Position numbers and translations under genes: made by a program. DNA of 64,000 bases, from NCBI GenBank assembly GCA_964404005.1, contig CAYOIH010000001.1, positions 226-64,225 of the forward strand, written 5' to 3'. The notes under the pieces were generated by a model. It ran no database searches. It saw only the letters and a program-made list of their open reading frames with translations, and was not told the DNA's origin. This document shows, in pieces, positions 29,358 to 59,332 of the stretch (position 1 is the stretch's first letter; each line of letters opens with the position of its first letter). The DNA is from an uncultured Candidatus Saccharibacteria bacterium. GTDB lineage: Bacteria > Patescibacteriota > Minisyncoccia > Minisyncoccales > Staskawiczbacteraceae.

Positions 29358-29804
29358 ATGAAGCAAAAAAGCAACAGAAAAGTTGTAATAACCTCCGGAT
29401 ACTACAACCCCTTACATATTGGTCATGTAAATTTAATTAGAGAAGCTAAAAACTTGGGAGATTTTTTAGTTGTTATAGTAAACAATGATAAGCAGGTGGA
29501 AGCAAAAGGTTCAGTTCCTTTTATGCCGGAAGGAGAGCGGGTAGAGATAATTAAAGCCGTAAAAGATGTAGATGAAGTATTTTTATCTATAGATGAAGAC
29601 AGAACGGTTATTAAAAGTTTGGAGAGGGTTTTTCAAAAACATAAAGGAAAAGAATTATTGTTTGCCAAGGGCGGAGACAGTACGAGTGAAAATGTCCCGG
29701 AAATGGAGGTTTGTGAGAAATTTGGAGCAAAGATTATTTTTGACGTTGGCGGCGGAAAAGTTCAAAGCTCTTCTTGGCTTATAGAAAAATCAATCAAGAG
29801 GTGA
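29358..29804 (+). CDS. cytidylyltransferase-like nucleotidyltransferase (TagD/RfaE-domain-II-like)
   Basis: VVITSGYYNPLHIGHVNLIREAK (HxGH motif), ~148 aa. Confidence 0.55.
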   Translation: MKQKSNRKVVITSGYYNPLHIGHVNLIREAKNLGDFLVVIVNNDKQVEAKGSVPFMPEGERVEIIKAVKDVDEVFLSIDEDRTVIKSLERVFQKHKGKELLFAKGGDSTSENVPEMEVCEKFGAKIIFDVGGGKVQSSSWLIEKSIKR

Positions 29805-29848
29805 GCGTTATTAAATGACACTTTTTGACCCCTATTGACACCGAGTTA

Positions 29849-30118
29849 ATGGGGGTTTATTATTCATTAATGGAAGAAGAAATACAACCTCGTAAAATAT
29901 ATACCCCGAAAGAGGCCAGGGACTTTCTGAAGGTTTCGGAAAGCACCATGAAAAGAATGCTAAAAAGTGGAATTATCAAGGCTTATAAAGTAAGTGGCCA
30001 GTATAGAATTTGGGGAAGCGAGATATTAATTCTTGTGTCGCCCAAATTGGAATCTAAGGTATATAAAGTTTATAAAAAAATAAGAGAAAATACTCAAAAA
30101 ACCATTGAAAAATGGTAA
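29849..30118 (+). CDS. excisionase-family HTH DNA-binding protein
   Basis: PKEARDFLKVSESTMKRMLKSGIIKAYKVSGQYRI matches MerR-like excisionase-family HTH (xis/AlpA type). Confidence 0.5.
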   Translation: MGVYYSLMEEEIQPRKIYTPKEARDFLKVSESTMKRMLKSGIIKAYKVSGQYRIWGSEILILVSPKLESKVYKVYKKIRENTQKTIEKW

Positions 30119-30127
30119 CTAAAAAAT

Positions 30128-30871
30128 ATGCAATCAAATAAAAAAGTGGGAATTTTGGGATATGGTGAAATCGGCCAGGCAATTGCCAAGTTTTACAAAA
30201 ACCCGAAGATTAAAGATTTAAAAAGGGATGAAGGCCTTGAAGGTATCGAAATTTTGCATATTTGTATCCCCTGGTCAGATAAATTTGTAGAAATTGTAAA
30301 AAAACAGATAAAAGAAACAAATCCAAGGCTTACAATCATCCATTCTACCGTGGCCCCCGGAACCACAAGGAAGATTATCAATGGCTTGCCCCGAGCTTGT
30401 CGAGGGGTTGTCCATAGTCCTGTAAGGGGCATACACCCGAAGTTATATGAGGGAATAAAAACGTTTGTAAAATATATCGGCGCCGATGACAAAAAAGCCG
30501 GGCAAATGGCAAAAAAACATTTTAAAAGTTTAGGGATAAAAACAAAAACTTTTTATCCGACAACCACCACAGAATTAGGAAAAATTTTAGATACTACCTA
30601 TTACGGTGTTTGTATCGCCTGGCACGGCGAAATGAAAGAGATATGCGATAAGTTCGGCGTTGATTTTGAAAGTGCAGTGACAGATTTTAATAAAACTTAT
30701 AATGAGGGGTACACAAAGCTTGGGAAAAAGAATGTTGTAAGGCCAGTTTTATATCCGCCTCAAAATGGTAAACCAAAACACTGCATCATCCCAAACGCTG
30801 AAATTCTCAGCCGATACTACAAAACGCCGATTTTCGAATTATTATTGAAGAAGTATAAAAACAAACTTTAA
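30128..30871 (+). CDS. Rossmann-fold NAD(P)-binding dehydrogenase-like protein (nucleotide-sugar dehydrogenase N-domain-like)
   Basis: VGILGYGEIGQAIA dinucleotide fold; HSTVAPGTT resembles UDP-sugar dehydrogenase N-domain; only 247 aa. Confidence 0.3.
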   Translation: MQSNKKVGILGYGEIGQAIAKFYKNPKIKDLKRDEGLEGIEILHICIPWSDKFVEIVKKQIKETNPRLTIIHSTVAPGTTRKIINGLPRACRGVVHSPVRGIHPKLYEGIKTFVKYIGADDKKAGQMAKKHFKSLGIKTKTFYPTTTTELGKILDTTYYGVCIAWHGEMKEICDKFGVDFESAVTDFNKTYNEGYTKLGKKNVVRPVLYPPQNGKPKHCIIPNAEILSRYYKTPIFELLLKKYKNKL

Positions 30872-30875: not shown

Positions 30876-31056
30876 ATGAAAAAAGCGCTAATAACCGGAA
30901 TTTGCGGCCAAGACGGGTTTTATTTATTGGAGTTTTTGCTGTCCAGACACCCAAAGAGCAGAAAAAGAGTTTGGTTTTAAGACAAAGATAAAATTAGAAG
31001 ACGGCATAAAAAAACTATTCAATGGTATGAATCAACAAGAGAATAAAAAATATTAA
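30876..31056 (+). pseudogene. remnant: GDP-mannose 4,6-dehydratase N-terminus (34 aa, then stop) fused to an epimerase C-terminal tail
   Basis: [22 protein letters not shown] matches Gmd N-terminus (intact gmd at 44170 starts [22 protein letters not shown]); followed out of frame by FGFKTKIKLEDGIKKLF C-terminal epimerase-like tail. Confidence 0.55.
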
Positions 31057-31077: not shown

Positions 31078-32223
31078 ATGCCAGGATGGGAATTATTAGG
31101 TAAAGAAGAAAAAGAAGCCGTTGATGAAATATTTGATAAAAGCAACGGCGTTTTATGCCGTTATGGCTTAGACCAACGAAGGAACAATATTTTCAGAGTT
31201 AAAGAATTTGAAAAAACCTTGGCGCAAAAATTAGGCGTCAAACATTGTCTTTTTGTCTGCAATGGCACAGCCGCATTAAAAATCGCGCTTGTTGCTATGG
31301 GGGTTAAGGCGGGAGATGAAGTAATTACCCAAAGTTTTACTTTTGTCGCAACAGCCGAAGTGGTTTTGGAATTGGGGGCAAAACTTGTTATAACCGAAGT
31401 TGACGAATCTTTGAATATGGATCCGCAAGATTTAAAACAAAAAATTACTTACAAAACAAAAGTTATAATCCCGGTCCATATGTCGGGAGTTGCGGCAAAA
31501 ATGGACGAAATATTGGAAATTGCGAAAGAAAAAAATATTCATGTTTTGGAAGACAGTTGCCAGGCACTGGGTGGAAAATATAAAGGGAAATATCTGGGTA
31601 CAATTGGAGATGCCGGCGTTTATAGCTTGGATATTGGAAAAATAATTACAACGGGCGAAGGCGGAGTTCTAGTCACAAACGACGACAGCCTTTATTTACA
31701 AGCAAAAGAATATTCAGATCATGGCCATCAGGACAAGATGGGCGTTCCAAGAGGCGAGGATACTCATTCGAGTTGGGGCTTTAATTACAAAGTTACTGAA
31801 CTCCAGGGGGCAGTAGGTTTGGCTCAGTTAAAAAAGATAGATTATATTTTGCAAGCGCAGAAAAAGAATAAAAAAATTATCAAGGAAGCTTTGCAGAATA
31901 TTAACGGAATAGAATTTCGTCAGCTTCCGGACTCAGAGGGTGATGCCGGGGACACGCTTATATTTTTTGTCGAGAATAAAGAAAAAGCATCAGAATTCGC
32001 TAAAAAATTTAAAGAAAAAGGTTTTGGCACTAAAAATTTACCGGATGCTCTTAATTGGCATTTTGCCGGAGACTGGAGCCATATTTTTCCACGGGTTGAT
32101 ATTTGGCCAAAATCAGAAGAAATTTTGAGGAAAGCTATAGCTATTCCTGTAATGGTTAATATGAATGACGAACAAATAAATAATATTATTAAAGCCATAA
32201 AAGAGGCAGCAGAAAAAATATGA
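31078..32223 (+). CDS. DegT/DnrJ/EryC1/StrS-family PLP-dependent sugar aminotransferase
   Basis: CNGTAALKIAL, active-site Lys region IGKIITTGEGG, ~380 aa. Confidence 0.8.
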   Translation: MPGWELLGKEEKEAVDEIFDKSNGVLCRYGLDQRRNNIFRVKEFEKTLAQKLGVKHCLFVCNGTAALKIALVAMGVKAGDEVITQSFTFVATAEVVLELGAKLVITEVDESLNMDPQDLKQKITYKTKVIIPVHMSGVAAKMDEILEIAKEKNIHVLEDSCQALGGKYKGKYLGTIGDAGVYSLDIGKIITTGEGGVLVTNDDSLYLQAKEYSDHGHQDKMGVPRGEDTHSSWGFNYKVTELQGAVGLAQLKKIDYILQAQKKNKKIIKEALQNINGIEFRQLPDSEGDAGDTLIFFVENKEKASEFAKKFKEKGFGTKNLPDALNWHFAGDWSHIFPRVDIWPKSEEILRKAIAIPVMVNMNDEQINNIIKAIKEAAEKI

Positions 32224-32855
32224 TATTAGGCGTGACTCCAGCAAGAGGGGGAAGCAAAGGCGTTCCCAAAAAAAATATAAAAGATATGTTGGGCAAGCCA
32301 CTTCTTGCTTGGACAATAGAATCAGCAAAGAAATCAAATCTTTTGGACAGATATATTGTCTCGACTGAAAACAGGGAGATAATGGCGGTCGCCAAAAAAT
32401 ACGGCGCAGATTTTTTAATAAGGCCCAAAAATCTTGCGACAGATAGCGCAACAACATTGTCTGTTTTAAAGCATGTTCTCGCGAAGATAGATGCTGACAT
32501 TGTGGTTATTTTGCAATGCACTTCCTCGGTGAGAGATGACGGCTTGATAGACAAATGTATTAAGAATTTTAAAGACAAGAGAGCCGATTCCTTGGCAACA
32601 GGATTTATGTGTAATTTTTTTGAATGGGGCAGTTACGATGGCAGGCGCCAGGACCTGAAAAACTTTTTCCACGACGACGGAAATATATACATCCTAAAGG
32701 CTGATTTAATAAAAAAAGCGAGCCATTTGAAGGACGCCTGGGGTAAAAAGCAGGAAAGAGTTGTCGTCAGTAAGGATCAGAATTTTGAAATAGATGATGA
32801 ATTTGATTTTTGGTTAAACGAACAGATATTATTAAAAAGAAAAAATAAATGCTGA
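32220..32855 (+). CDS. CMP-nonulosonic acid synthetase (acylneuraminate cytidylyltransferase family, NeuA/PseF/LegF-like)
   Basis: ILGVTPARGGSKGVPKKNIKDMLGKPLLAWTI N-terminal motif of the CMP-NeuAc synthetase family. Confidence 0.75.
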   Translation: MILGVTPARGGSKGVPKKNIKDMLGKPLLAWTIESAKKSNLLDRYIVSTENREIMAVAKKYGADFLIRPKNLATDSATTLSVLKHVLAKIDADIVVILQCTSSVRDDGLIDKCIKNFKDKRADSLATGFMCNFFEWGSYDGRRQDLKNFFHDDGNIYILKADLIKKASHLKDAWGKKQERVVVSKDQNFEIDDEFDFWLNEQILLKRKNKC

Positions 32856-32856
32856 T

Positions 32857-35544
32857 ATGAAAGTACTTTTTGTAATGCCTAATAAAGATGTTTTTGGCTA
32901 TAAGCCTATTGCACTAGCCCTTTTGTCGGCACTTTCTAAAAGACTAGGATGGGAAACAAAATTGTTTGATACAACAGGGATTGATTTTGGGTTTTCTGAA
33001 AGCAAAACCCTTTTCCAAGCTGCAAAAATATTCAAGCCCGTGGACTTTACGAAATACGACATGGCTAAGAAGAAAGTTGATTTAAAGGAAGAGTTCACAA
33101 ATGTATTTAAGGATTATAATCCTGATATTCTAGCTTTTTCTGTTTTAAGCGATCAGTTTATAATATCAAAGGAAATTTCGGAAACAGCAAAAAGGCTCAA
33201 TCCTAATATCGTAGTTATTTGGGGCGGAGCCCATGCAACATTGGACCCGGAGAATGTCCTGAAAAATTATGGGGCGGATTTCGTTTGTTTGGGGGAGGGG
33301 CTTGAAGCATTCCCTGAATTTTTGAGCGCATTTAAGGACGGGAAAGATCTATATAATATTAAAAATATTTGGGGTATTAGAAACGGGGAGATTATAAAAA
33401 ACGACTTAAGGCCGCTAAAACAGAACTTAGACGATTTGCCCTATCTTGATTGGGATATCTTTGATAAAAGGCATTTCTATAAACCATTTTCCGGAAAAGT
33501 ATATATAGGAGGAGACCATATGCTTAACTGGGGATGCGTAAATAATTGCACATATTGCATTAATAATTTTTATCACAATCTTTACGCAGGCAAAAAATGT
33601 GCTTTTCTTAGGCGTTATTCGCCCAAAAGAATCGTTGAAGAATTGAAATATTTGGAAGAAAAGTATGGAATAGAGTTTTTTAAATTTTTTGATGAAGATT
33701 TTCTGCTAAGACCATTGGACTCGCTTAAAGAATTAAGTGAGTTGTATAAAAAAGAGGTTAATGTCCCTTTTTCAATCGAAACTAATCCAAAATTTGTTGA
33801 CCGTGAGCGAGTAGCACTTTTAAAAAATATGAATTGCGTCAATGCTTCGCTAGGGGTTGAAACAGGCGACCTTAAGGCCCGAAAAGAAATATTGGGCAGA
33901 ATAGATTCCGAAGAAGATATTGTAAGGGCCTTTACTTTGTTGAGAGAGGCCGGGATAAAAACATCTTCTTTTAATATGCTCGGGCTGCCTTTTGAATCTA
34001 GGGAAGCTTATAAAAAAACAATCGAAATAAACAGGAAGGCGAATCCTCAATACCCGCAGTGCGGTTTTTTCTATCCTTTTAAAGGAACAAAACTTAGGGA
34101 TATTTCAATTAGTCTTGGTTTGTTTGACGATAAAAATAAGGATACGGCGATATGGCTATATGACAAGCCAGCTCTTCATTTTAAACACTTGACGGAGGAT
34201 GAGCTAGTGGAGATGAGAAATGTTTTTGTCTTTTACATAAAGCTACCCAGAGAATATGAGCCGTTCATAAGAAGGTCGGAAAAAAGAGATGAAATAGGCA
34301 CGAAACTGAGAAATAAAATTTCTGAAATATATGATAAAACTGTGTGGGCGAATGACGGCTGGTATGCAGACGATGGCTTTAAGGAAAATTATTTGGCGGA
34401 GTTAAAACAGATAACGGACAATATAGGCAGTATTGATTTTAGTGGCTTTTCGGGGTCGGCGAAAAAAAATGAAAATGGTTTTAAAAACTATAAAAATGTT
34501 CCTTATTATTTTTTTGGTAAAGGATCTGTCTCTGAGCTGAAAAATGTATTGTCGAGAAAAAGAGTACAAGGGCTTCCGACAGTTTTTTTAGTTGATGAAT
34601 TTTTTACCGATAAAAATGTGCAGAATATCCTGTCGCTGGAGCCGGCAGACATTTTGATTTTTGTTTCTACAAAACAAGAACCCAAAGCAGAGTATATTGA
34701 TGAAATAACTGATGGGATAAAATCAAAATTTCAAAAAGGCCTACCTTCGGCAATAATAGGAATGGGCGGAGGAACGGTAATGGATATTTCAAAATGTGTT
34801 TCTATTTTATTGACAAATCCAGGCAAAGCAGAAGATTACCAGGGCTGGAATTTAGTTAAAAATCCGGGTGTTTATAAAATTGGCATACCGACAATTTCAG
34901 GCACGGGAGCAGAAACGTCAAGAACAGGCGTGTTTACAAGCAAAAAAGTAAAATTGGGTATGAATAGCGAATATTCCATGTTTGACCAAATTATTTTAGA
35001 TCCAGAATTTTTAAAAACAGTGCCGAAAGAGAAATTCATTTATACCGCAATGGATTGTTACGCTCATGATGTTGAATTATTGAAAGGCAACGACAGCCAA
35101 CTGACTAAAGTTTTTGCCGCTAGTTCGTTAAATCTATTGCGAGGGGCGCTAAAAAATCCCCAGAAAATTGATTATGAAAAGTTGATGCTTTCTTCTTATC
35201 TTGGCGGAATCGCAATGGGAACGGCTTCGGGTGGGCACGTATGCCATCCGACCTCTTACGGCCTTAGTTTTGTTTTAGGATTAAGACACGGGATATCGGT
35301 GTGCATGGCATTTAATGCTTTGGAAGAATATTATGGAGATTTTTTGCCTGAGTTCAGGGATATTTTCTTCAGATTCAACGTGAATTTGCCCAAAGGTGTT
35401 ACAAAAGACGCCACAGAGCAGCAGATAGAAGAAATGGCGCAAGCAACGCTTAAAAATGAAAAACCGCTGGAGAGCGCTTTCGGAAAAAATTGGAGAGAGG
35501 TATTTACAAAAGAAAAAGTAAAAGAGATTTTAAGAAGAATATAA
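32857..35544 (+). CDS. fusion protein: B12-binding radical-SAM domain (N-terminal) + iron-containing alcohol dehydrogenase/DHQS-like domain (C-terminal)
   Basis: N-terminal B12-binding-like Rossmann domain, CVNNCTYC radical-SAM cluster; C-terminal GMGGGTVMD (GGGS motif) and His-rich metal site HVCHPTSYGL of the Fe-ADH/DHQS superfamily. Confidence 0.6.
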   Translation: MKVLFVMPNKDVFGYKPIALALLSALSKRLGWETKLFDTTGIDFGFSESKTLFQAAKIFKPVDFTKYDMAKKKVDLKEEFTNVFKDYNPDILAFSVLSDQFIISKEISETAKRLNPNIVVIWGGAHATLDPENVLKNYGADFVCLGEGLEAFPEFLSAFKDGKDLYNIKNIWGIRNGEIIKNDLRPLKQNLDDLPYLDWDIFDKRHFYKPFSGKVYIGGDHMLNWGCVNNCTYCINNFYHNLYAGKKCAFLRRYSPKRIVEELKYLEEKYGIEFFKFFDEDFLLRPLDSLKELSELYKKEVNVPFSIETNPKFVDRERVALLKNMNCVNASLGVETGDLKARKEILGRIDSEEDIVRAFTLLREAGIKTSSFNMLGLPFESREAYKKTIEINRKANPQYPQCGFFYPFKGTKLRDISISLGLFDDKNKDTAIWLYDKPALHFKHLTEDELVEMRNVFVFYIKLPREYEPFIRRSEKRDEIGTKLRNKISEIYDKTVWANDGWYADDGFKENYLAELKQITDNIGSIDFSGFSGSAKKNENGFKNYKNVPYYFFGKGSVSELKNVLSRKRVQGLPTVFLVDEFFTDKNVQNILSLEPADILIFVSTKQEPKAEYIDEITDGIKSKFQKGLPSAIIGMGGGTVMDISKCVSILLTNPGKAEDYQGWNLVKNPGVYKIGIPTISGTGAETSRTGVFTSKKVKLGMNSEYSMFDQIILDPEFLKTVPKEKFIYTAMDCYAHDVELLKGNDSQLTKVFAASSLNLLRGALKNPQKIDYEKLMLSSYLGGIAMGTASGGHVCHPTSYGLSFVLGLRHGISVCMAFNALEEYYGDFLPEFRDIFFRFNVNLPKGVTKDATEQQIEEMAQATLKNEKPLESAFGKNWREVFTKEKVKEILRRI

Positions 35545-45225: not shown

Positions 45226-45248
45226 ATAAACAAAATAATTTTTTAAAG

Positions 45249-52745: not shown

Positions 52746-53336
52746 GTAAAAAGATTGTTTGATATAATTTTTTCTGCGATAGGGTTGGTAATTACTTTTC
52801 CAATATTTTTATATGTGGTTTTTTTGATTAAAAGGGAATCGCCCGGGCCGATTTTTTATCGAGCACAAAGGATTGGTAAAAATAGAAAAGCTTTTGTAAT
52901 GTATAAATTTAGGACAATGGTTGTTGGCGCCGATAAAATTGGGGGACCATCAACCGCCGCCGACGACCCCAGGCTTACAAAAATCGGCTTATTTCTAAAG
53001 AAGTACCAACTTGATGAATTGCCCCAACTTATAAACGTTTTTAAAGGCGATATGAGTTTTGTGGGACCAAGGCCAGAAGTGAAGATATACGTTGATATGA
53101 TGACAGAAGAGGAAAAAAATGTTATCTTATCGGTACGTCCCGGTATTACAGACTTGGCATCATTATGGAACTTTCACGAGGCAGAAATATTAAAAGGAAG
53201 CACAGACCCGGAGAAAACATATATGGAGGAAATAAGACCCGAAAAGTTAAGACTCCAGCAAGAATATGTAAAAAAATCTTCTATTTGGCTGGACATTAAA
53301 ATAATTTGGCAGACGGTTTTAAAGGTATTTAAATAA
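52719..53336 (+). CDS. small initiating phosphoglycosyltransferase (bacterial sugar transferase, PglC/WbaP-C-terminal type)
   Basis: KRLFDIIFSAIGLV (re-entrant helix), PGPIFYRAQRIGKNRKAFVMYKFRTM, DELPQLINVFKGDMSFVGPRP. Confidence 0.8.
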   Translation: MKKPAISNGVKRLFDIIFSAIGLVITFPIFLYVVFLIKRESPGPIFYRAQRIGKNRKAFVMYKFRTMVVGADKIGGPSTAADDPRLTKIGLFLKKYQLDELPQLINVFKGDMSFVGPRPEVKIYVDMMTEEEKNVILSVRPGITDLASLWNFHEAEILKGSTDPEKTYMEEIRPEKLRLQQEYVKKSSIWLDIKIIWQTVLKVFK

Positions 53337-54133: not shown

Positions 54134-54136
54134 AAA

Positions 54137-54643
54137 ATGGCTGAAATAATAAAAAAACAAGATACAAGGCGCGAGTTTGCAAGCACTCTTATGGAATTAG
54201 CCCGAAAGGACAATAAGATTGTTTTAATTATTCCGGACGTTGGTTTTAACTATCTCGAGGAATTCCAGAAAAGTTTTCCTGACAGATTTTTTAATTTTGG
54301 CGTAACAGAGCAATCTGCCATGATAATTGCCGCGGGTTTGGCGCTGTCAGGATTTAAGCCGTATATATATAGTATGATTAATTTTGTTGTCTTCAGGCCA
54401 TATGAAATGGTCAGAAATGCTGTTTGCATGCACAACGCCAACGTAAAAATTATTGGAGTAAAAGGAAGCGAAAAATATAAATTTTTGGGTTTTAGTCACA
54501 ATCTGATTTCTGAAGACGAAGATATTAGGGCTGTAGAAAACCTTCCAAATTTTAAATCTTTTATTATTACAGACCCGAAAGAAGTCAGAAAAATCATTTT
54601 AGAAACATATCAAAATAATTCGCCTTGCTATATAAGAATTTAA
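54137..54643 (+). CDS. transketolase C-terminal-section-like subunit (pyrimidine-binding domain only, short)
   Basis: FFNFGVTEQSAMIIAAGLALSGFKPYIYSM; only 168 aa (typical C-terminal subunit ~310 aa). Confidence 0.6.
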   Translation: MAEIIKKQDTRREFASTLMELARKDNKIVLIIPDVGFNYLEEFQKSFPDRFFNFGVTEQSAMIIAAGLALSGFKPYIYSMINFVVFRPYEMVRNAVCMHNANVKIIGVKGSEKYKFLGFSHNLISEDEDIRAVENLPNFKSFIITDPKEVRKIILETYQNNSPCYIRI

Positions 54644-54651: not shown

Positions 54652-55590
54652 ATGAAAAAAAATTTTGAACAATTAAATAGCCCGGAATTTGGGGAAGCTG
54701 ATGAAGCAATAGAGAAGGAAAAAGTAGCTTATAGAGAAATTATTGGGTTACCCGAGGGTGAGGACCCCGATTTAATTCTTGTATTGGATGCTGGCATCGC
54801 CGAAAGGAAAGTTTTTGGCGAATCACGATACGTTCCCACTTCATATGAAGACGAGACCGGAAATTTTTCAGAGCAAGCCGTGGCCGATAAATCAAAATAT
54901 AACTTGCGCAAAACTGATCAAGGAAATTTTTTAGTTGGCGCAGGGGGCGGTAAGGCGCGGGTATTGGCTGTAAGGAATTTATCGGAGGTTTTTACCAATG
55001 TGGGTATAATTACAGATAGCCGATATCCTGTTGGCGAAAGCGATCAGCCGGATTTTCCCGAAGTTCATTCTCAAATATATAAAAGATATTTAGAGAGAGC
55101 AGGCATTCCTTCTGATAGAATAGAAGAAGAAAATGAATCAACGACAACTTTTGAAGGATTGATAAATTTTTTATTGATTGCTGTGAATGAAAAGAGAAAT
55201 CATCTTGTTGTTGTGACAAACGATTATCATTTACCAAGAACAGAAAAAATAATGGATCTTCTTATGGATAAGGAAAAGGCGCAGAAGCTAAGATATATAT
55301 TTGCAAGGATGCCCGAGGAATACCGAAGGAAGATAGGGGCAAAAATTGAGCACCATGATGACGGAGGGGTTGATTTGTCTTTTGATGACGAAGCATTTTT
55401 TGAAAAGCTGAAGGGTGTTTCCGTAATCGTCGTGTCCGCCGAGGATATCTTGGCCTATGATAATCCGCATTATAAAAATCTGTTTGATAAGGTTAGAAAT
55501 ACCGTCGCATATAAAAAGAGAGTAAATGCTGAGCAGAAAGGCATACGCCAGCTTGAAGATGGGGTATATGGTAAAATAAGAAAAGAATAA
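54652..55590 (+). CDS. DUF218 (YdcF/SanA/ElyC-like) domain protein
   Basis: HLVVVTNDYHLPRTEKIM resembles the VTSxYHMxRA core of DUF218. Confidence 0.4.
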   Translation: MKKNFEQLNSPEFGEADEAIEKEKVAYREIIGLPEGEDPDLILVLDAGIAERKVFGESRYVPTSYEDETGNFSEQAVADKSKYNLRKTDQGNFLVGAGGGKARVLAVRNLSEVFTNVGIITDSRYPVGESDQPDFPEVHSQIYKRYLERAGIPSDRIEEENESTTTFEGLINFLLIAVNEKRNHLVVVTNDYHLPRTEKIMDLLMDKEKAQKLRYIFARMPEEYRRKIGAKIEHHDDGGVDLSFDDEAFFEKLKGVSVIVVSAEDILAYDNPHYKNLFDKVRNTVAYKKRVNAEQKGIRQLEDGVYGKIRKE

Positions 55591-55603: not shown

Positions 55604-56704
55604 ATGAGTAAAGTTCCATTTGTTGGATATAGAACCCAATATCAAAATTTAAAGCAAGAAATTGATTTTGCAATGCAGGATGTTTTGGCTAGAGGGGACT
55701 TGATTATGCGGAAAGATAACGATGAGTTTGAAAAGAAGCTAGCGGAATTTGTTGGTACAAAATATGCTATTGGATTGAATAGTGGAACAGACGCCTTATT
55801 TTTATCTTTGCTTGCCTTGAATATTGGGAAAGGAGACGAGGTAATAACGGTTTCCCACACGTTTGTTGCTTCAATAGCTGTTATAGTACAAACAGGAGCC
55901 GTGCCAGTACTGATTGAAGTTGGTGAAGATTTTGAAATGGACGCAGATAAAATTGAAGCTGCAATAACCAAAAATACAAAAGCAATTATTCCAGTCCATT
56001 ATAATGGCAGGATGGCCGATATGGATAGAATAATGGAAATTGCAAAAAAGCATAATCTTTATGTTATTGAAGATGCGGCTCAAGGGTTGGGGGCAAGTTT
56101 AAATGGGAAAAAAGCTGGCTCCATAGGCAATACCGGATGTTTTAGTTTTTATCCTGCAAAAATATTAGGATGCTTTGGAGATGGCGGAGCACTGACTACA
56201 AATGATGAAAAAATAATCGAGAAAATAAAATTATTAAGAGATCACGGCCAGAAAACAAAAACAGAATTGGTTTGTTTTGGCTGGAATTCAAGATTGGATA
56301 ATTTGCAAGCAGCTGTTTTAAATGTAAAAATGAATTATTTACCGCAGTGGCTGGAAAGAAGGCGTGATATAGCAAAAACTTATAATGCCGGGTTGGCTGA
56401 TGTAAAACAAGTAAAAACTCCTTTTGGGTTTGAATCGGAGGATAGATACGATGTTTTTCAAAATTATGTTTTGAGAGCAGAAAAAAGAGATGAATTGTAC
56501 GGCTTCTTAAAAGAAAAAGAAGTAGAAACACTGATAAAAGATCCTGTGGCAAATCACCTGCAGGAAGGTTTAAATCTTTCTTATTTCAGTCTTCCTTTCA
56601 CGGAACTGCTTTCCAAAGAAGTTATTTCTTTGCCGATGTATCCGGAATTAATAGATGAACAAATAAAATACGTCGTAGGGTGCATTAAAGATTTTTATAA
56701 GTAG
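55604..56704 (+). CDS. DegT-family aminotransferase (PglE/ArnB-like)
   Basis: GLNSGTDALFLSL, SFYPAKILGCFGDGG lysine region. Confidence 0.8.
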   Translation: MSKVPFVGYRTQYQNLKQEIDFAMQDVLARGDLIMRKDNDEFEKKLAEFVGTKYAIGLNSGTDALFLSLLALNIGKGDEVITVSHTFVASIAVIVQTGAVPVLIEVGEDFEMDADKIEAAITKNTKAIIPVHYNGRMADMDRIMEIAKKHNLYVIEDAAQGLGASLNGKKAGSIGNTGCFSFYPAKILGCFGDGGALTTNDEKIIEKIKLLRDHGQKTKTELVCFGWNSRLDNLQAAVLNVKMNYLPQWLERRRDIAKTYNAGLADVKQVKTPFGFESEDRYDVFQNYVLRAEKRDELYGFLKEKEVETLIKDPVANHLQEGLNLSYFSLPFTELLSKEVISLPMYPELIDEQIKYVVGCIKDFYK

Positions 56705-56710
56705 AAATTT

Positions 56711-58573
56711 ATGGGAGTATTCTTTTTAAAAAGGACGACAACGACAAGATTATTGTTTTTTTTATTTTTTGACATACTGTTGATTTCGGCTTCGATTTAT
56801 TTGTCCTTTCTTTTAAGATTTGATGGGACAATACCGACGGAATATTTGGACGGGCAAGAAATACAAAAAATCATAATTTGGACACTATTTTTTTGTTTAC
56901 CAATTTTTTATCTCTTCGGGCTATACTCTTTTTCCTGGTCGTACGTAAGCACCCAGGAATTAGTATCTCTTTTTAAGGCTACAACGCTCGGTTTTTTATT
57001 TTTGGGAATCACGATATTTCTTTCAAGAGAATTTCCTTTATTTGTGGGATTTCCCAGGTCGGTCTTTATCATAAGTTATTTTCTGATTTTTATATTTTGC
57101 GGCGGCTTGCGCTTGTCAAAAAAAATCTATCTGATAGTTGTTGGGCGTGGTAAGAAATCGGATAAAGAGAGGACTCTGATTGTGGGTGCGGGGGATGCGG
57201 GCGAGCAGATTTTAAGGAGCATAATTTCTTCAGATAAAAGTCCGTATCACCCCATTGGGCTGGTGGATGACAATCCTATAAAAAAAGGGGTACTAATTCA
57301 TAATTTAAAGGTTTTGGGGAAAATTTGCGATATTCCCGGAATTGTCAAAAGTTTTCAGGTAAAACAGCTGATAATCGCTTTGCCCTCAGTAGACGGGAAA
57401 AAAATAAAAGAAGCGGTTGAGCTTGGAAAAAAAGCAGGCGTATGGAAAATAAAAATTGCTCCGCCCCTGTCTGAAATAATTAAGGGGCAAGTGTCTTTTA
57501 AAAATCTTAAAGACGTAGAAGTTGAAGATTTGTTGGGGCGAGAAGAGGTTGTTTTAGATAAAAAACAGATAGATGAATTTATAAAAAATAAAAAGGTTCT
57601 TGTAACGGGAGCGGCAGGATCAATAGGGTCGGAATTGTGCAGGCAGATTGCAAAATTTAATCCTGAGCTCTTAATATTGCTTGATCAGGATGAAACGGGA
57701 ATTTTTCATATTTCCAGAGAATTGAAAAGCATTTTTTCACAATTGAAAATTGAGCCATTGGTGTGTGACATCGCAGATAAAAATAAAATAAGTAAAGTTT
57801 TTGAGAAGTTTGAGCCGGAAATCGTTTTCCACGCAGCTGCCTACAAACACGTTCCTTTAATGGAGGAAAACTGCGACGAAGCGATAAAAAATAATATTTT
57901 TGGAACAAAAGTAGTGGCTGAAGCGGGATTGGTTTTTGGCGCTGAAAAGTTTATTTTTATTTCAACCGATAAGGCGGTTAATCCCACCTCTGTAATGGGG
58001 GCCACAAAAAGAGCCGGCGAAATGCTTTGCCAGTTGTTGAATGAGAAAGGTAAAACCAAGTTTGTTTCCGTAAGATTCGGGAATGTGTTAAACAGCAGAG
58101 GAAGCGTTATTCCAATTTTCAGAGAGCAAATAAAAAAGGGCGGACCCGTTGAAGTTACGCACCCCGAAATGAAAAGATATTTTATGCTGACTTCGGAAGC
58201 TTGCCTTTTAGTTATGCAAGCTGGAGCCATGGGGCAAGGGGGAGAAGTTTTTGTTTTGGACATGGGAAAACCAATAAAGATAGTTGATTTGGCAAAGGAG
58301 ATGATAAAGCTATCCGGGCTTCAGCTCGATAAGGATATCACGATTGTTTTTATAGGAAAAAGGCCGGGAGAAAAATTATTTGAGGAAATTTTGACAGCAG
58401 AAGAGGGGATACTTGCTACTAAAAACCAAAAAATATTTACGGCTAAACTTTTCTCTGTTAATTTAGAAAAGTTTGAAGAGGATTTGAAAATTTTAGAATC
58501 TATCATTGCCAAAGATGATAAAGATAGTGTGGTGGATTTTCTAAAAAGTTTAGTTCCTTTTTACGAAATATAA
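56711..58573 (+). CDS. membrane-anchored UDP-sugar 4,6-dehydratase (CapD/PglF/WbpM family)
   Basis: 4 N-terminal TM helices; VLVTGAAGSIGSELCRQI; Polysacc_synt_2-type SDR. Confidence 0.8.
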   Translation: MGVFFLKRTTTTRLLFFLFFDILLISASIYLSFLLRFDGTIPTEYLDGQEIQKIIIWTLFFCLPIFYLFGLYSFSWSYVSTQELVSLFKATTLGFLFLGITIFLSREFPLFVGFPRSVFIISYFLIFIFCGGLRLSKKIYLIVVGRGKKSDKERTLIVGAGDAGEQILRSIISSDKSPYHPIGLVDDNPIKKGVLIHNLKVLGKICDIPGIVKSFQVKQLIIALPSVDGKKIKEAVELGKKAGVWKIKIAPPLSEIIKGQVSFKNLKDVEVEDLLGREEVVLDKKQIDEFIKNKKVLVTGAAGSIGSELCRQIAKFNPELLILLDQDETGIFHISRELKSIFSQLKIEPLVCDIADKNKISKVFEKFEPEIVFHAAAYKHVPLMEENCDEAIKNNIFGTKVVAEAGLVFGAEKFIFISTDKAVNPTSVMGATKRAGEMLCQLLNEKGKTKFVSVRFGNVLNSRGSVIPIFREQIKKGGPVEVTHPEMKRYFMLTSEACLLVMQAGAMGQGGEVFVLDMGKPIKIVDLAKEMIKLSGLQLDKDITIVFIGKRPGEKLFEEILTAEEGILATKNQKIFTAKLFSVNLEKFEEDLKILESIIAKDDKDSVVDFLKSLVPFYEI

Positions 58574-58588
58574 TTAAATAAATTTAAA

Positions 58589-59332
58589 ATGGAAAATTAT
58601 AATGGTTACGAAGAGGTTGATTTGATGAATCTTGTAAAAATTACAGCGAGGGGTAAAAAAATAATACTAGTTTGTTTTGTAATAGGATTATTGGTTATCG
58701 CTGGTATGCTCGTTCTTAAAAACATTGGCATAATCCCGAGTACATACGAGGCGGTCTCAGTAATCGAAGTTGGCTATGTTGACTGGGGGGGCGTAGATGG
58801 AACCGTTAATCGGGCGGCAATAGAGGCGCCCGATGAATTAGTTGGAAAGATAAACTATGGAGTATTTAATAAGGGCACAAATTTAAATCCCGGTGATATC
58901 GTGTCTGCCAGCATCGTACTCGATACAAGAATGATAGAAATAAAAGTTAGCTCTAAAAGTCAAGAGAGGGCCAAGGGTTATTCGTCAGATCTCGTTTCAG
59001 CCGTTTTGTTAGAACAGGATGATTTATTGGAATCTTATAAAAACCAAATTAATCAAAAGATAGCAAGAGCAGAACAAACCATGGTAAAATTCACAGCGAT
59101 GGGGCAGCAAGTGTCGGGTATCCAATTAAGGGATTTTGATTTGCATAATCAATTAGATAGTATAGTTCTTTCTAGTTTAGTGGACGGTCCTAATGTCTCA
59201 CATAATAAACAGAATATTATATCTATGCTAGTCATAGGAGCAGTCTTGGGGATTTTTATAGGATTTGTGGTTATTTTTATAAAAGAATGGTGGAACAAAA
59301 ATAAGAGCAGAGCAAAAGAAGCTAGAATTTAA
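58589..59332 (+). CDS. Wzz-like chain-length-determinant-topology protein (TM - periplasmic domain - TM)
   Basis: TM near N-term (IILVCFVIGLLVIAGMLVL) and near C-term (ISMLVIGAVLGIFIGFVVIFI). Confidence 0.35.
   Translation: MENYNGYEEVDLMNLVKITARGKKIILVCFVIGLLVIAGMLVLKNIGIIPSTYEAVSVIEVGYVDWGGVDGTVNRAAIEAPDELVGKINYGVFNKGTNLNPGDIVSASIVLDTRMIEIKVSSKSQERAKGYSSDLVSAVLLEQDDLLESYKNQINQKIARAEQTMVKFTAMGQQVSGIQLRDFDLHNQLDSIVLSSLVDGPNVSHNKQNIISMLVIGAVLGIFIGFVVIFIKEWWNKNKSRAKEARI

What the first reader, a model, noticed from the sequence alone, without database searches (positions are those of the whole stretch)
29358..59332. ~30 kb surface-glycan locus with nonulosonic-acid and GDP-6-deoxy/amino-hexose branches in a CPR-like genome
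Contiguous + strand genes run from a cytidylyltransferase through DegT, NeuA-like, the rSAM::Fe-ADH fusion, NeuB and NeuC. These are followed by Wzx, a KPHP-motif transferase, an LbH acetyltransferase, an FkbM methyltransferase, Fcl, a C-methyltransferase, Gmd, a Per-like aminotransferase, a methyltransferase, GT2, an epimerase, a hypothetical gene, Wzy-like, GT2 and a methyltransferase. The locus ends with PglC-like, split transketolase, DUF218, DegT, PglF-like and Wzz-like genes. This predicts a heavily methylated or acetylated glycan containing a sialic/legionaminic-type nonulosonic acid together with fucose/perosamine-type sugars. The adjacent minus-strand Wzy_C+TPR protein (26980-29307) is a candidate protein O-oligosaccharyltransferase. 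That would fit S-layer or pilin glycosylation rather than LPS in a probably monoderm, episymbiont-type cell.
Basis: partly seen in the sequence, partly recalled or inferred. Interest (0 to 1): 0.6.

Follow-up and report, generated by a model that had tools for sequence, protein, structure and literature searches.

The report
CPR surface-glycan locus, tailored sialic acid
A tiny-genome groundwater-type bacterium (Candidatus Staskawiczbacteria) carries a real 30-kb surface-sugar gene cluster whose sialic-acid branch includes two unusual tailoring steps, an amine-installing enzyme pair and a vitamin-B12-type radical enzyme, and that radical enzyme turns out to sit next to sialic-acid genes in many anaerobic phyla without appearing in the literature I could search.

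Summary
The genome is CPR: its ClpB is 84-90% identical to Candidatus Staskawiczbacteria proteins.

The nonulosonic-acid branch looks Neu-type, not clearly Leg or Pse. NeuB is 54.7% identical to meningococcal NeuB, NeuC passes its equivalog cutoff, and NeuA resembles CMP-Neu5Ac synthetases.

Two points are new:
- **Amine-installing pair.** The first DegT and the Fe-ADH half of the fusion are specific homologues of Shewanella KdnA and KdnB, which convert the terminal CH2OH of Kdo to CH2NH2. This predicts a 9-amino-9-deoxy sialic acid.
- **B12-radical SAM half.** It belongs to a conserved family that lies within 10 kb of NeuB in 25 of 30 loci from several phyla. It also occurs fused to NeuB, NeuA or NeuC. 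I found no paper linking radical SAM enzymes to nonulosonic acids.

The 450-aa 'KPHP' protein is a GT-B enzyme most like a polysialyltransferase. The rSAM chemistry, the O-oligosaccharyltransferase role of Wzy_C+TPR, and absence of LPS all remain inferred.

The parts
26980..29307 (-). Wzy_C + C-terminal TPR membrane protein (775 aa, about 12 TM). Candidate ligase or oligosaccharyltransferase for the finished glycan.
   Evidence: Pfam Wzy_C 77.4 bits and weak TPR hits. TM count. A homologue sits divergently next to the same cassette in L004 (34% identity), L044 (33%) and L050 (24%).
29358..29804 (+). Small cytidylyl/adenylyltransferase (RfaE-II/TagD-like), substrate unknown.
   Evidence: PF01467 58.9 bits. 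TIGR02199 scores 75 bits, below its cutoff. Conserved next to Wzy_C-TPR in L004 (63%) and L044 (38%).
29825..30118 (+). HTH_17 DNA-binding protein, likely a locus regulator.
   Evidence: PF12728 40 bits. Homologues of 54-59% identity sit at the head of related loci L044, L050 and L056.
30128..30871 (+). 247-aa Rossmann protein with partial NDP-sugar dehydrogenase similarity. Function unknown.
   Evidence: TIGR03026 47 bits, matching only the central part of the model. No Pfam hit.
30876..30980 (+). 34-aa remnant of a GDP-mannose dehydratase N-terminus (pseudogene fragment).
   Evidence: Sequence [22 protein letters not shown]. Interpreted by eye.
31078..32223 (+). KdnA-like PLP aminotransferase. 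Predicted to aminate the terminal aldehyde of the ulosonic acid.
   Evidence: Best PDB hit is 5K8B (Kdo8N transaminase), 313.8 bits over residues 1-337. The next best hit scores 172 bits. Pfam DegT 291 bits.
32220..32855 (+). CMP-nonulosonate synthetase (NeuA-like).
   Evidence: PF02348 97 bits. PDB hits to CMP-Neu5Ac synthetases score 81.5, 70.2 and 67.8 bits, against 32 for KdsB. PseF model scores 123 bits, below its 206 cutoff.
32857..34431 (+). B12-binding radical SAM domain of the 895-aa fusion (aa 1-525).
   Evidence: PF02310 61 bits and PF04055 88 bits. CX3CX2C motif at C227/C231/C234, invariant in alignment A1. AF2 pLDDT 91.1. Best folds are TsrM, AprD4, MgmA, CysS, OxsB and TokK. NeuB-linked in 25/30 loci.
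34432..35544 (+). KdnB-like Fe-ADH domain of the fusion (aa 526-895). Predicted terminal-alcohol oxidase.
   Evidence: PDB 3RF7 310.7 bits and 5K8C (Kdo 8-oxidase) 295 bits, both full length. 41.8% identity to 5K8C. Next hit 87 bits.
35548..36603 (+). Nonulosonate synthase (NeuB), Neu5Ac-synthase-like.
   Evidence: PF03102 253.7 bits plus SAF. TIGR03569 381.6 bits (cutoff 399.65), against PseI 263. 54.7% identical to N. meningitidis NeuB 1XUU.
36614..37759 (+). Hydrolysing UDP-GlcNAc 2-epimerase (NeuC/LegG class).
   Evidence: TIGR03568 413.8 bits, above its 235.9 cutoff. PDB hits to GNE (187.6) and LegG (186) are equal, so the sugar type is not resolved.
37774..39213 (+). Wzx-type flippase.
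   Evidence: Polysacc_synt 47.6 bits. About 12-13 TM segments.
39302..40654 (+). Pfam-less GT-B enzyme with an invariant HP motif. Candidate nonulosonate transferase.
   Evidence: PF07388 scores 20.6 bits, below its cutoff. 237 homologues, mostly from Patescibacteria. H315-P316 invariant. AF2 pLDDT 89.4. Best PDB fold is polysialyltransferase 5WCN, E = 3e-12. A homologue is in L044 beside NeuABC.
40638..41177 (+). LbH acyl/acetyltransferase (Maa/LacA-like).
   Evidence: Hexapep 60.5 bits. Best NCBIfam hits are O-acetyltransferases, all below their cutoffs. NeuD/PglB family scores only 64.5 against 160.8.
41265..42008 (+). FkbM-family methyltransferase.
   Evidence: TIGR01444 90.9 bits, above its 37.7 cutoff.
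42010..42939 (+). Fcl-like GDP-4-keto-6-deoxyhexose epimerase/reductase.
   Evidence: NF047922 251.7 bits (cutoff 500). Fused to a C-methyltransferase in L014.
42951..44168 (+). NDP-hexose C-methyltransferase (Zn-ribbon + MT + C-terminal domain).
   Evidence: PF08484 125.5 bits, PF08421 56.4 bits, PF13489 62.2 bits.
44170..45225 (+). GDP-mannose 4,6-dehydratase (Gmd).
   Evidence: TIGR01472 547.9 bits, above its 415 cutoff.
45207..46349 (+). Perosamine-synthase-like aminotransferase.
   Evidence: Best PDB hits are 3DR7 and 3BN1 (GDP-perosamine synthase), 273 bits.
46300..46905 (+). Class I SAM methyltransferase.
   Evidence: PF08241 41.6 bits.
46908..47822 (+). GT2 glycosyltransferase.
   Evidence: PF00535 100.8 bits.
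47824..48735 (+). SDR sugar epimerase/reductase.
   Evidence: PF01370 173.4 bits. GalE model 159 bits, below its cutoff.
48737..49600 (+). 287-aa soluble protein of unknown family, conserved in L044 (51%).
   Evidence: No Pfam or NCBIfam hit. L044 homologue.
49594..50850 (+). Wzy-type polymerase candidate (418 aa, about 11 TM).
   Evidence: Wzy_C 33.1 bits (cutoff 31.7). TM count.
50863..51888 (+). GT2 glycosyltransferase with C-terminal TM segments.
   Evidence: PF00535 98.8 bits. TM count.
51798..52664 (+). Class I SAM methyltransferase.
   Evidence: PF08241 78 bits.
52719..53336 (+). Small (PglC-size) polyprenyl-phosphate phosphoglycosyltransferase, the initiating enzyme.
   Evidence: PF02397 205.7 bits. 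One TM segment.
53336..54133 (+). Transketolase-like TPP-binding subunit.
   Evidence: PF00456 115.5 bits.
54137..54643 (+). Transketolase-like Pyr-domain subunit, with no Transketolase_C domain.
   Evidence: PF02779 68.9 bits. tblastn with the L010 subunit matches only residues 24-178.
54652..55590 (+). DUF218 protein, function unknown.
   Evidence: PF02698 41 bits.
55604..56704 (+). Sugar aminotransferase, closest to the 3-aminotransferase class.
   Evidence: PDB hits: 7B0D 350 bits, QdtB 283, WbpE 245, PglE-type 1O61 112.
56711..58573 (+). PglF/CapD-like membrane-anchored UDP-HexNAc 4,6-dehydratase.
   Evidence: PF02719 385.9 bits plus CoA_binding_3. 4 TM segments.
58589..59332 (+). Short PCP/Wzz-like protein (two TM segments flanking about 170 aa).
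   Evidence: Wzz E = 0.011, below threshold. Topology.

Best explanation
The region 26980-59332 is the Wzx/Wzy-type surface-glycan locus of a Candidatus Staskawiczbacteria (CPR) cell.

Assembly, inferred from family membership:
- A small phosphoglycosyltransferase starts the repeat unit on a polyprenyl phosphate.
- Two GT2 enzymes, the 287-aa protein and a GT-B 'HP-motif' enzyme extend it.
- Wzx flips it, the 418-aa Wzy_C protein polymerises it under a short PCP-like protein, and the divergent Wzy_C+TPR protein hands it to its acceptor.

Three sugar branches feed the pathway:
1. A Neu-type nonulosonic acid. NeuC makes ManNAc from UDP-GlcNAc and NeuB condenses it with PEP. The KdnB-like Fe-ADH domain then oxidises the terminal C9 alcohol to an aldehyde, the KdnA-like aminotransferase converts it to an amine, and the NeuA-like enzyme activates the product with CMP. 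The B12-binding radical SAM domain fused to the KdnB-like domain adds a further radical modification. A C-methylation is most likely, possibly at the same end of the molecule, as in the GenK/GenQ/GenB1 steps of gentamicin biosynthesis.
2. GDP-mannose-derived 6-deoxy sugars, from Gmd followed by the Fcl-like reductase, the C-methyltransferase and the perosamine-synthase-like aminotransferase.
3. A UDP-HexNAc-derived 6-deoxy-amino sugar, from the PglF-like dehydratase and the third DegT.

Shown: gene content, family and closest-homologue assignments, taxonomy, and the conserved genomic link between this rSAM family and NeuB/NeuA/NeuC.
Inferred: the substrate (a nonulosonate rather than Kdo), the position aminated, the rSAM chemistry, and the acceptor of the glycan.
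For: Gene families.

CPR origin: ClpB-like protein 84-90% identical to proteins named Candidatus Staskawiczbacteria.

Neu-type core:
- NeuC passes its equivalog cutoff.
- NeuB is 54.7% identical to meningococcal NeuB, scoring 399.7 bits against 166.6 for PseI.
- NeuA-like is closer to CMP-Neu5Ac synthetases than to KdsB.

KdnA/KdnB-like pair:
- DegT_1 scores 313.8 bits to 5K8B against 172 for the next hit, and the match includes the N-terminal 40 aa that other sugar aminotransferases do not align to.
- The Fe-ADH domain scores 295-311 bits to 5K8C and 3RF7 against 87 for the next hit, and is 41.8% identical over the full length.
- The function of KdnB is taken from PMC5125639, which cites Gattis et al. 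2013.
- The same set recurs in L016 (KdnB-like 52%, KdnA-like 68%, rSAM, NeuA, NeuB 75%, NeuC 66%), and with a different Fe-ADH in L004, L013, L014 and L048.

rSAM family:
- More than 300 homologues. Fusions occur to NeuB (P0002, P0003), to NeuB-like + NeuA (P0009), to NeuC (P0113) and to a methyltransferase (P0069), with the rSAM always N-terminal.
- NeuB lies within 10 kb in 25/30 loci with at least 8 kb of flank, and in 11/12 loci with at least 18 kb.
- NeuB is the most frequent Pfam family among 140 neighbouring ORFs.
- Host taxa include Omnitrophota, Desulfobacula, Verrucomicrobiia and Kiritimatiellae.
- The fold is class B rSAM.
- Several loci hold only NeuA/B/C plus the rSAM, with no redox partner found among homologues of the window's proteins. 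This favours a self-contained step such as methylation.

Candidate nonulosonate transferase.
Against: - No enzyme here has been assayed.
- KdnA and KdnB are characterised only on Kdo. Transfer of the reaction to C9 of a nonulosonate is by analogy.
- NeuB scores 381.6, just under the TIGR03569 cutoff of 399.65. NeuC matches human GNE and Acinetobacter LegG equally, so a Leg-type product from the PglF-like/DegT_3 genes is not excluded.
- The rSAM fold matches AprD4, a diol dehydratase that does not methylate, with the highest TM-score (0.70). No NCBIfam rSAM model reaches its cutoff.
- In the closest relative, L004, the Fe-ADH is not KdnB-like.
- 4-5 of 30 loci with good flanks lack NeuB, NeuA and NeuC.
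- A role of Wzy_C+TPR in protein glycosylation rests on synteny only.
Confidence: 0.6

Rival explanations
1. The nonulosonic acid is legionaminic-acid type. The PglF-like dehydratase, DegT_3 and an acetyltransferase make UDP-diNAcBac. The NeuC-like enzyme acts as LegG, NeuB as LegI and NeuA as LegF.
For: - A PglF-like dehydratase and an aminotransferase are in the locus.
- NeuC scores equally to Acinetobacter LegG (186 bits) and to GNE (187.6).
- TIGR03568 covers both classes.
Against: - No PglD/LegH/NeuD-type N-acetyltransferase is present. The LbH protein scores 64.5 against a 160.8 cutoff.
- DegT_3 is closer to 3-aminotransferases than to PglE.
- NeuB is 54.7% identical to a true Neu5Ac synthase.
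- Leg is 9-deoxy, so it would give the KdnB-like terminal-alcohol oxidase no substrate at C9 (inference).
Confidence: 0.15
2. The B12-type radical SAM domain is not a methylase. It is an AprD4-like 1,2-diol dehydratase acting on the C7-C9 glycerol side chain. The resulting carbonyl is then reduced by the fused Fe-ADH (giving deoxygenation, as with AprD4/AprD3) or aminated by the KdnA-like enzyme.
For: - AprD4 (6FD2) is the structural match with the highest TM-score (0.62/0.70) and is the best rSAM sequence hit in the PDB (48 bits).
- Fusion of a radical enzyme to an alcohol dehydrogenase mirrors dehydratase-reductase pairs (general knowledge).
Against: - The Fe-ADH domain is specifically KdnB-like, and KdnB is described as an oxidase.
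- Many loci have the rSAM with NeuABC but no reductase or aminotransferase among homologues of the window's proteins.
- The relative L004 carries a transcobalamin-like DUF4430 gene in the cassette, which hints at real cobalamin use. AprD4 does not need cobalamin (my own knowledge).
- TsrM, CysS, TokK and MgmA, all methylases, match with similar E-values.
Confidence: 0.2
3. This is an ordinary LPS O-antigen cluster of a diderm cell. The Wzy_C+TPR protein is a WaaL-type ligase to lipid A-core, and the KdnA/KdnB-like pair makes Kdo8N for the core, as in Shewanella.
For: - Wzx, Wzy, a PCP-like protein and a Wzy_C protein are the standard O-antigen set.
- KdnA and KdnB are known from LPS biosynthesis.
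Against: - The genome is Candidatus Staskawiczbacteria. CPR bacteria are generally described as lacking LPS biosynthesis (my own knowledge).
- No lpx, kdsA or kdsB gene appears among the ORFs of at least 90-100 aa listed for the window that I scanned. Some shorter ORFs upstream of 24 kb were not scanned.
- The cytidylyltransferase beside the pair is NeuA-like rather than KdsB-like.
- The pair is embedded between NeuA and NeuB/NeuC, and the KdnB-like domain is fused to a NeuB-linked rSAM.
Confidence: 0.05

Closest known systems
KdnA/KdnB of Shewanella oneidensis (Kdo to Kdo8N; PDB 5K8B and 5K8C)
   Same: The first DegT and the Fe-ADH domain are the clear best matches to these two proteins, at 313.8 and 295 bits and well separated from all other PDB entries. 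The logic is the same: an Fe-ADH-type oxidase followed by a PLP transaminase, acting on a 3-deoxy-2-ulosonic acid before CMP activation.
   Different: The context here is NeuC/NeuB/NeuA and not KdsA/KdsB. The KdnB-like domain is fused to a B12-radical SAM domain. The host is a CPR bacterium with no LPS genes in view. The predicted substrate is a nine-carbon sugar, which is an inference.
Bacterial de novo sialic acid pathway NeuC-NeuB-NeuA (for example the N. meningitidis SiaA/SiaC/SiaB capsule genes)
   Same: All three enzymes are present and adjacent. NeuC passes its equivalog cutoff and NeuB is 54.7% identical to SiaC/NeuB.
   Different: There are three extra tailoring activities (KdnA-like, KdnB-like, B12-rSAM). 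NeuA is short (211 aa) and below the equivalog cutoffs.
Class B (cobalamin-dependent) radical SAM enzymes acting on sugars: GenK (gentamicin C6' methylase, followed by the GenQ dehydrogenase and GenB1 aminotransferase) and AprD4 (diol dehydratase)
   Same: The domain has the B12-binding + rSAM architecture, the CX3CX2C motif and a fold match to TsrM, AprD4, CysS and TokK. The triad of radical enzyme, dehydrogenase and aminotransferase parallels GenK/GenQ/GenB1 (my own knowledge).
   Different: No NCBIfam subfamily model reaches its cutoff. The family is linked to NeuB and not to aminoglycoside genes. The chemistry is undetermined.
GT38 bacterial polysialyltransferase (PDB 5WCN)
   Same: It is the best structural match of the 450-aa protein (E = 3e-12). 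Both have the GT-B fold and an invariant HP motif, and the only Pfam signal is PF07388, around that motif.
   Different: Sequence identity is only 13%. The Pfam score is below the gathering threshold. A D/E-D/E-G motif was not identified. Generic GT-B epimerases match nearly as well.
PglL/PilO-type O-oligosaccharyltransferases and WaaL ligases (Wzy_C superfamily)
   Same: The 775-aa protein has a Wzy_C domain in a polytopic membrane protein next to a glycan locus.
   Different: It has a C-terminal TPR region and no PglL-specific domain was detected. The acceptor is unknown.

Membership tests
Wzx/Wzy-dependent glycan assembly locus | Initiating polyprenyl-phosphate phosphoglycosyltransferase | tested here: met
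   PF02397 205.7 bits, 205 aa, one TM segment.
Wzx/Wzy-dependent glycan assembly locus | Wzx flippase and Wzy polymerase | tested here: met
   Polysacc_synt 47.6 bits. Wzy_C 33.1 bits against a 31.7 cutoff, about 11 TM segments.
Wzx/Wzy-dependent glycan assembly locus | Polysaccharide co-polymerase (Wzz/PCP) | tested here: inconclusive
   Wzz Pfam hit only at E = 0.011. The two-TM topology fits.
Neu5Ac de novo pathway (NeuC/NeuB/NeuA) | Hydrolysing UDP-GlcNAc 2-epimerase | tested here: met
   TIGR03568 413.8 bits, above its 235.9 cutoff. This does not separate NeuC from LegG.
Neu5Ac de novo pathway (NeuC/NeuB/NeuA) | N-acetylneuraminate synthase | tested here: inconclusive
   TIGR03569 381.6 bits, below its 399.65 cutoff. 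However, the protein is 54.7% identical to N. meningitidis NeuB, and PseI scores only 263.
Neu5Ac de novo pathway (NeuC/NeuB/NeuA) | CMP-sialate synthetase | tested here: inconclusive
   PF02348 97 bits. The nearest PDB entries are CMP-Neu5Ac synthetases. No equivalog cutoff is reached.
Legionaminic acid pathway | 4,6-dehydratase + C4 aminotransferase + N-acetyltransferase making diNAcBac | tested here: not met
   The dehydratase is present. The aminotransferase is closer to 3-aminotransferases. No PglD/LegH/NeuD-type acetyltransferase reaches its cutoff.
Pseudaminic acid pathway | PseB, PseC, PseH (GNAT), PseG, PseI, PseF | tested here: not met
   PseI scores 263 (cutoff 340), PseF 123 (cutoff 206), PseC at most 260 (cutoff 423). 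No GNAT or PseG-like gene is present.
KdnA/KdnB (Kdo8N) system | Fe-ADH-type ulosonate terminal oxidase homologous to KdnB | tested here: met
   295-311 bits, full length, 41.8% identity, next hit 87 bits. The clade is small: 85 representatives at E <= 1e-30.
KdnA/KdnB (Kdo8N) system | PLP transaminase homologous to KdnA | tested here: met
   313.8 bits to 5K8B, next hit 172.
KdnA/KdnB (Kdo8N) system | Substrate is Kdo, in an LPS context (kdsA, kdsB) | tested here: not met
   No Kds genes among the window's scanned ORFs. The neighbours are NeuA, NeuB and NeuC. The whole genome was not available.
Class B cobalamin-dependent radical SAM enzymes | N-terminal B12-binding domain plus a CX3CX2C radical SAM core | tested here: met
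   PF02310 61.1 bits (cutoff 32.1) and PF04055 88.3 bits. C227, C231 and C234 are invariant. Fold matches to TsrM, CysS, TokK and OxsB.
Class B cobalamin-dependent radical SAM enzymes | Cobalamin actually bound and methyl transfer performed | not testable with these tools
   Needs biochemistry. AprD4, which is not a methylase, is an equally good structural match.
GT38-type bacterial sialyltransferase | GT-B fold with an HP motif | tested here: met
   Best fold match is 5WCN. H315-P316 are invariant in 42 sequences.
GT38-type bacterial sialyltransferase | Pfam PF07388 above threshold, and a D/E-D/E-G motif | tested here: not met
   20.6 bits against a 23.3 cutoff. The motif was not identified in A3.
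PglL-type protein O-oligosaccharyltransferase | Wzy_C domain | tested here: met
   77.4 bits.
PglL-type protein O-oligosaccharyltransferase | Transfer of a lipid-linked glycan to Ser/Thr of proteins | not testable with these tools
   Only synteny is available, together with a Ser/Thr-rich (27%) secreted PG-binding protein 0.15 kb upstream.

The most novel reading that the evidence does not exclude
A widespread but undescribed anaerobic route tailors sialic acids by cobalamin-dependent radical SAM chemistry, for example C-methylation that gives a branched or ten-carbon ulosonic acid. In Staskawiczbacteria and some other lineages it is coupled to KdnAB-type oxidation and transamination. CPR cells would then display 9-amino-9-deoxy sialic acids, possibly C-methylated and N-acylated. 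This sugar class is, to my knowledge, so far known only as synthetic analogues.
Probability: 0.3. Interest if true: 0.8.

Novelty: new variant of a known kind. Interest (0 to 1): 0.62.

Why it matters
Nonulosonic acids are key surface determinants in host-microbe and phage-microbe recognition. Their known diversity comes from a few pathways (Neu, Leg, Pse, Kdn) plus O- and N-acyl decorations.

This locus points to two tailoring steps not described for nine-carbon sugars:
- a KdnAB-type terminal amination;
- a B12-radical SAM step that is genomically tied to NeuB across Patescibacteria, Omnitrophota, Desulfobacterota-type, Verrucomicrobiota and Kiritimatiellae genomes.

If confirmed, this would add new natural sialic-acid structures. 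It would also assign a function to a Pfam-annotated but functionally orphan rSAM family with more than 300 members, and to a Pfam-less GT-B family common in CPR. Finally, it would give a concrete chemical handle (lectins, DMB-LC-MS masses) on the envelope of uncultivated episymbionts.

Tried and rejected
- **Literature.** 'radical SAM' + 'nonulosonic' gave 0 papers, 'B12-binding' + 'radical SAM' + 'sialic acid' gave 0, and 'nonulosonic' + 'Patescibacteria' gave 0. A five-term search showed no radical SAM overlap among the 25 listed papers. The KdnB search was swamped by 'kDNA'. The primary KdnAB paper PMC3610993 is not held. A search for natural 9-amino or C-methyl nonulosonates was unproductive.
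- **Genome scan.** The genome-contig scan returned only 7 loci because of its pattern step. The metagenome scan was needed to get usable statistics.
- **Cluster look-up.** It gave no names or taxonomy. Taxonomy came from ClpB homologues instead.
- **NCBIfam on relatives.** Scans of L004's DUF4430 and DUF6580 proteins, and of L016's Fe-ADH and DegT, added nothing. There are no KdnA/KdnB-specific models.
- **L004 genes in the window.** L004's DUF4430, DUF6580, AP_endonuc_2, 469-aa protein and Wzx have no counterpart in the window by tblastn.
- **Transketolase_C.** I looked for a lost Transketolase_C domain in or after the 168-aa subunit and found none.
- **Neu versus Leg.** NeuC could not separate the two. 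I had no curated LegI references for a NeuB tree.
- **HTH_17 as a mobile-element excisionase.** Considered and rejected, because homologues sit at the head of related loci.
- **tRNA and Rfam.** No hits in the window.

Full report
**Observation.** The window has an uninterrupted array of + strand ORFs from 29358 to 59332. Intergenic gaps are mostly 1-20 nt or the genes overlap. GC content is slightly lower (0.33-0.375) than in the upstream housekeeping part of the window (0.37-0.41).
- cytidylyltransferase-like, DegT, CTP_transf_3, and a single 895-aa ORF with B12-binding + Radical_SAM + Fe-ADH
- NeuB + SAF, NeuC (equivalog cutoff passed), Wzx
- a 450-aa protein whose only signal is a sub-threshold polysialyltransferase hit
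- LbH, FkbM, Fcl-like, C-methyltransferase, Gmd (equivalog passed), DegT, methyltransferase, GT2, SDR
- a protein with no hit, Wzy_C, GT2, methyltransferase, a small Bac_transf
- transketolase N and Pyr pieces, DUF218, DegT, PglF-like
- a 247-aa protein with a weak Wzz hit but the expected two-TM topology

The divergent Wzy_C+TPR gene (26980-29307) is real. The identical 895-aa fusion protein is found on at least 24 independent contigs, so the fusion is not an assembly error.

**Whose genome.** The rest of the window carries HisRS, FtsA, NrdD, ComEC, HtrA, ClpB, MurB, HPF, a DUF5667 protein and PG_binding_1 surface proteins. The ClpB-like protein is 84-90% identical to proteins that NCBI names Candidatus Staskawiczbacteria. 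'CPR-like' is therefore supported. No lpx or kds gene was found among the window's ORFs that I scanned, but the whole genome could not be examined. Sialic-acid genes have been mentioned before in another CPR group (Peregrinibacteria, PMC4736985), so a nonulosonate branch in CPR is not new in itself.

**Type of nonulosonic acid.**
- NeuB is 54.7% identical to N. meningitidis NeuB (399.7 bits), against 166.6 bits for a PseI structure. It scores 381.6 on the NeuB model (cutoff 399.65) against 263 on PseI.
- The cytidylyltransferase is nearer to CMP-Neu5Ac synthetases (81.5, 70.2 and 67.8 bits) than to KdsB (32 bits).
- NeuC matches human GNE and Acinetobacter LegG equally, so it does not discriminate.
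- No PseG, PseH or PglD/LegH/NeuD-type N-acetyltransferase is present.
- The aminotransferase next to the PglF-like dehydratase resembles QdtB/WbpE-type 3-aminotransferases more than PglE.

I read the branch as Neu-type. Leg remains a minor rival and Pse is not supported.

**The KdnA/KdnB-like pair.** This is the main new point. The DegT beside NeuA is not a Leg/Pse-type enzyme. Its best solved relative is KdnA of Shewanella, the Kdo8N transaminase (5K8B), at 313.8 bits, with the next hit at 172 bits. The alignment starts at residue 1, whereas other sugar aminotransferases align only from about residue 41. The C-terminal 355 residues of the fusion match KdnB, the Kdo 8-oxidase (5K8C), and its homologue 3RF7 over their full length. 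The scores are 295-311 bits with 41.8% identity, and the next Fe-ADH scores 87 bits. KdnB catalyses the first step of Kdo8N formation (PMC5125639, citing Gattis et al. 2013). KdnA then transaminates the aldehyde (PDB molecule name, and my own knowledge of that work). The KdnB-like clade is small: 85 representatives at E <= 1e-30 out of 1.84 billion, none as long as the fusion. Here the pair is embedded between NeuA and NeuB/NeuC, with no Kds genes in view. By analogy it should convert the terminal C9 hydroxymethyl of a Neu-type sugar into an aminomethyl group. This is an inference, but it also argues against a 9-deoxy (Leg or Pse) product.

**The radical SAM half.** Residues 1-525 form a well-conserved B12-binding/radical SAM family. 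The CX3CX2C motif at C227/C231/C234 is invariant, and mean column identity is 66% over 26 sequences. There are more than 300 homologues, mostly stand-alone proteins of about 520 aa.
- *Fusions.* There are rSAM::NeuB fusions (P0002, P0003), an rSAM::NeuB-like::NeuA fusion (P0009), an rSAM::NeuC fusion (P0113) and an rSAM::methyltransferase fusion (P0069). The rSAM is always N-terminal.
- *Neighbourhoods.* I fetched 7 genome loci and 72 metagenome loci and compared their ORFs with the window's proteins. Among non-redundant loci with at least 8 kb of flank, 25 of 30 have NeuB within 10 kb, 16 have NeuA, 10 have NeuC, 15 have a DegT and 9 have an Fe-ADH. With at least 18 kb of flank, 11 of 12 have NeuB. 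A Pfam census of the 140 ORFs within 2.6 kb of the rSAM puts NeuB first (15), followed by CTP_transf_3 (11) and SDRs (11). A second B12-rSAM paralogue is also frequent.
- *Hosts.* Named hosts include Omnitrophota, Deltaproteobacteria, Desulfobacula, Verrucomicrobiia and Kiritimatiellae.
- *Closest relatives.* L016 has the same six functions as the window: KdnB-like 52%, KdnA-like 68%, rSAM 66%, NeuA, NeuB 75%, NeuC 66%. L004/L013, L014 and L048 have the KdnA-like enzyme next to an Fe-ADH of a different subfamily. L004 also carries a DUF4430 gene in the cassette. DUF4430 is the transcobalamin C-terminal domain (PMC4350170), which hints at cobalamin supply.
- *Fold.* The AlphaFold model (pLDDT 91.1) matches class B enzymes: TsrM, AprD4, MgmA, CysS, OxsB and TokK. 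No NCBIfam subfamily reaches its cutoff.

The data establish that this rSAM family belongs to nonulosonate biosynthesis. They do not establish its chemistry. I favour C-methylation for three reasons. Most class B enzymes are methylases. Several loci contain only NeuA/B/C plus the rSAM, with no redox partner detected. The triad of radical enzyme, dehydrogenase and aminotransferase parallels GenK/GenQ/GenB1 at C6' of gentamicin (my own knowledge). The AprD4-like diol-dehydratase alternative is kept as a rival, because AprD4 gives the highest TM-score. Full-text searches found no paper combining 'radical SAM' with 'nonulosonic', or 'B12-binding' with 'radical SAM' and 'sialic acid'.

**The 'KPHP' protein.** The 450-aa protein has no Pfam family and 237 homologues, mostly from Patescibacteria and some from Omnitrophica. 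H315-P316 are invariant. Its model (pLDDT 89.4) is a GT-B fold whose best PDB match is a bacterial polysialyltransferase with bound CDP (5WCN, E = 3e-12). Generic GT-B epimerases follow closely. A homologue (51%) lies beside NeuA/B/C in L044. It is a reasonable candidate for the CMP-nonulosonate transferase, but it does not meet GT38 membership by sequence.

**Other branches.**
- *GDP branch.* Gmd is secure. The neighbouring DegT is closest to GDP-perosamine synthase (273 bits). The Fcl-like reductase and the C-methyltransferase are fused to each other in L014, which suggests a C-methylated 6-deoxyhexose. An FkbM methyltransferase, two class I methyltransferases and an LbH acyltransferase predict further decoration.
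- *UDP branch.* The PglF-like dehydratase and the third DegT predict a 6-deoxy-amino-HexNAc, perhaps the reducing-end sugar for the PglC-size transferase.
- *Unexplained genes.* The transketolase-like pair lacks a Transketolase_C domain. Its role and that of the DUF218 protein are unexplained.

**Acceptor.** Homologues of the Wzy_C+TPR protein lie divergently next to the same cassette in L004, L013, L044 (there even with the PDDEXK_3 gene) and L050. This supports a functional link to the glycan. Whether it glycosylates proteins cannot be tested here. A secreted PG-binding protein with 27% Ser+Thr lies just upstream and is a candidate target. No LCP-type ligase was seen among the scanned ORFs.

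**Verdict.** As a Wzx/Wzy glycan cluster the locus is ordinary in kind. Its nonulosonate module is a new variant: a Neu-type core plus a KdnAB-like terminal amination pair plus a NeuB-linked B12-radical SAM enzyme of unknown chemistry. The rSAM-NeuB link extends across several anaerobic phyla and is absent from the literature I could search.

Noticed in passing
window 30876-30980 (+): A 34-aa [25 protein letters not shown]..., looks like the N-terminus of a GDP-mannose 4,6-dehydratase. It sits in the 207-nt gap before the KdnA-like gene and is probably a remnant of a past rearrangement of the cassette.
   Followed up: partly
window 29825-30118 (+); L044 4320-4631, L050 5884-6132, L056 5926-6165: An HTH_17 protein is conserved (54-59% identity) at the head of several related nonulosonate loci. 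It is therefore more likely a dedicated regulator than a mobile-element excisionase.
   Followed up: partly
window 53336-54643 (+): The split transketolase-like pair has a TPP-binding subunit (265 aa) and a Pyr-domain subunit of only 168 aa. No Transketolase_C domain is encoded anywhere nearby. A similar pair with a full-length second subunit lies near the rSAM/NeuA/NeuB genes in the Verrucomicrobiia locus L010.
   Followed up: partly
L014 2360-5533 (+): A groundwater contig closely related to the window carries a different 1057-aa fusion of an Fe-ADH with a second, distant B12-rSAM paralogue. It sits directly upstream of the KdnA-like, NeuA and rSAM genes. Fusion of an rSAM to an Fe-ADH has therefore arisen more than once.
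   Followed up: no
L011, L037, L046, L050, L052, L056, L071 (next to the rSAM orthologue): One or two further B12-binding radical SAM paralogues (24-30% identical) often accompany the NeuB-linked rSAM. Among 140 neighbouring ORFs there are 9 Radical_SAM and 7 B12-binding hits. This suggests multi-step radical tailoring in some lineages.
   Followed up: no
L004 5987-6997 (+): In the closest relative, a DUF4430 (transcobalamin C-terminal-like) protein and a DUF6580 membrane protein sit inside the cassette. They may form a cobalamin-binding or uptake pair serving the B12-rSAM. Neither is present in the window.
   Followed up: partly
window 24475-26424 (+) and 59377-61101 (+): Two secreted PG_binding_1 proteins flank the locus. 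The upstream one is 27% Ser+Thr, with TP-rich linkers and repeated beta-rich modules, making it a candidate glycoprotein. The downstream one contains an HEFTH (HExxH) metalloprotease-like motif.
   Followed up: no
window 26571-26990 (-): A PDDEXK_3 nuclease-family gene overlaps the end of the Wzy_C+TPR gene. The same pairing (55% identity) occurs in L044. Its role is unknown.
   Followed up: no
window 6345-8561 and 20590-21654 (+): The window carries an anaerobic ribonucleotide reductase (NrdD) and a separate radical SAM protein without a B12 domain, downstream of a ComEA-like protein. Both fit a strictly anaerobic lifestyle, which the B12-rSAM step would need.
   Followed up: no
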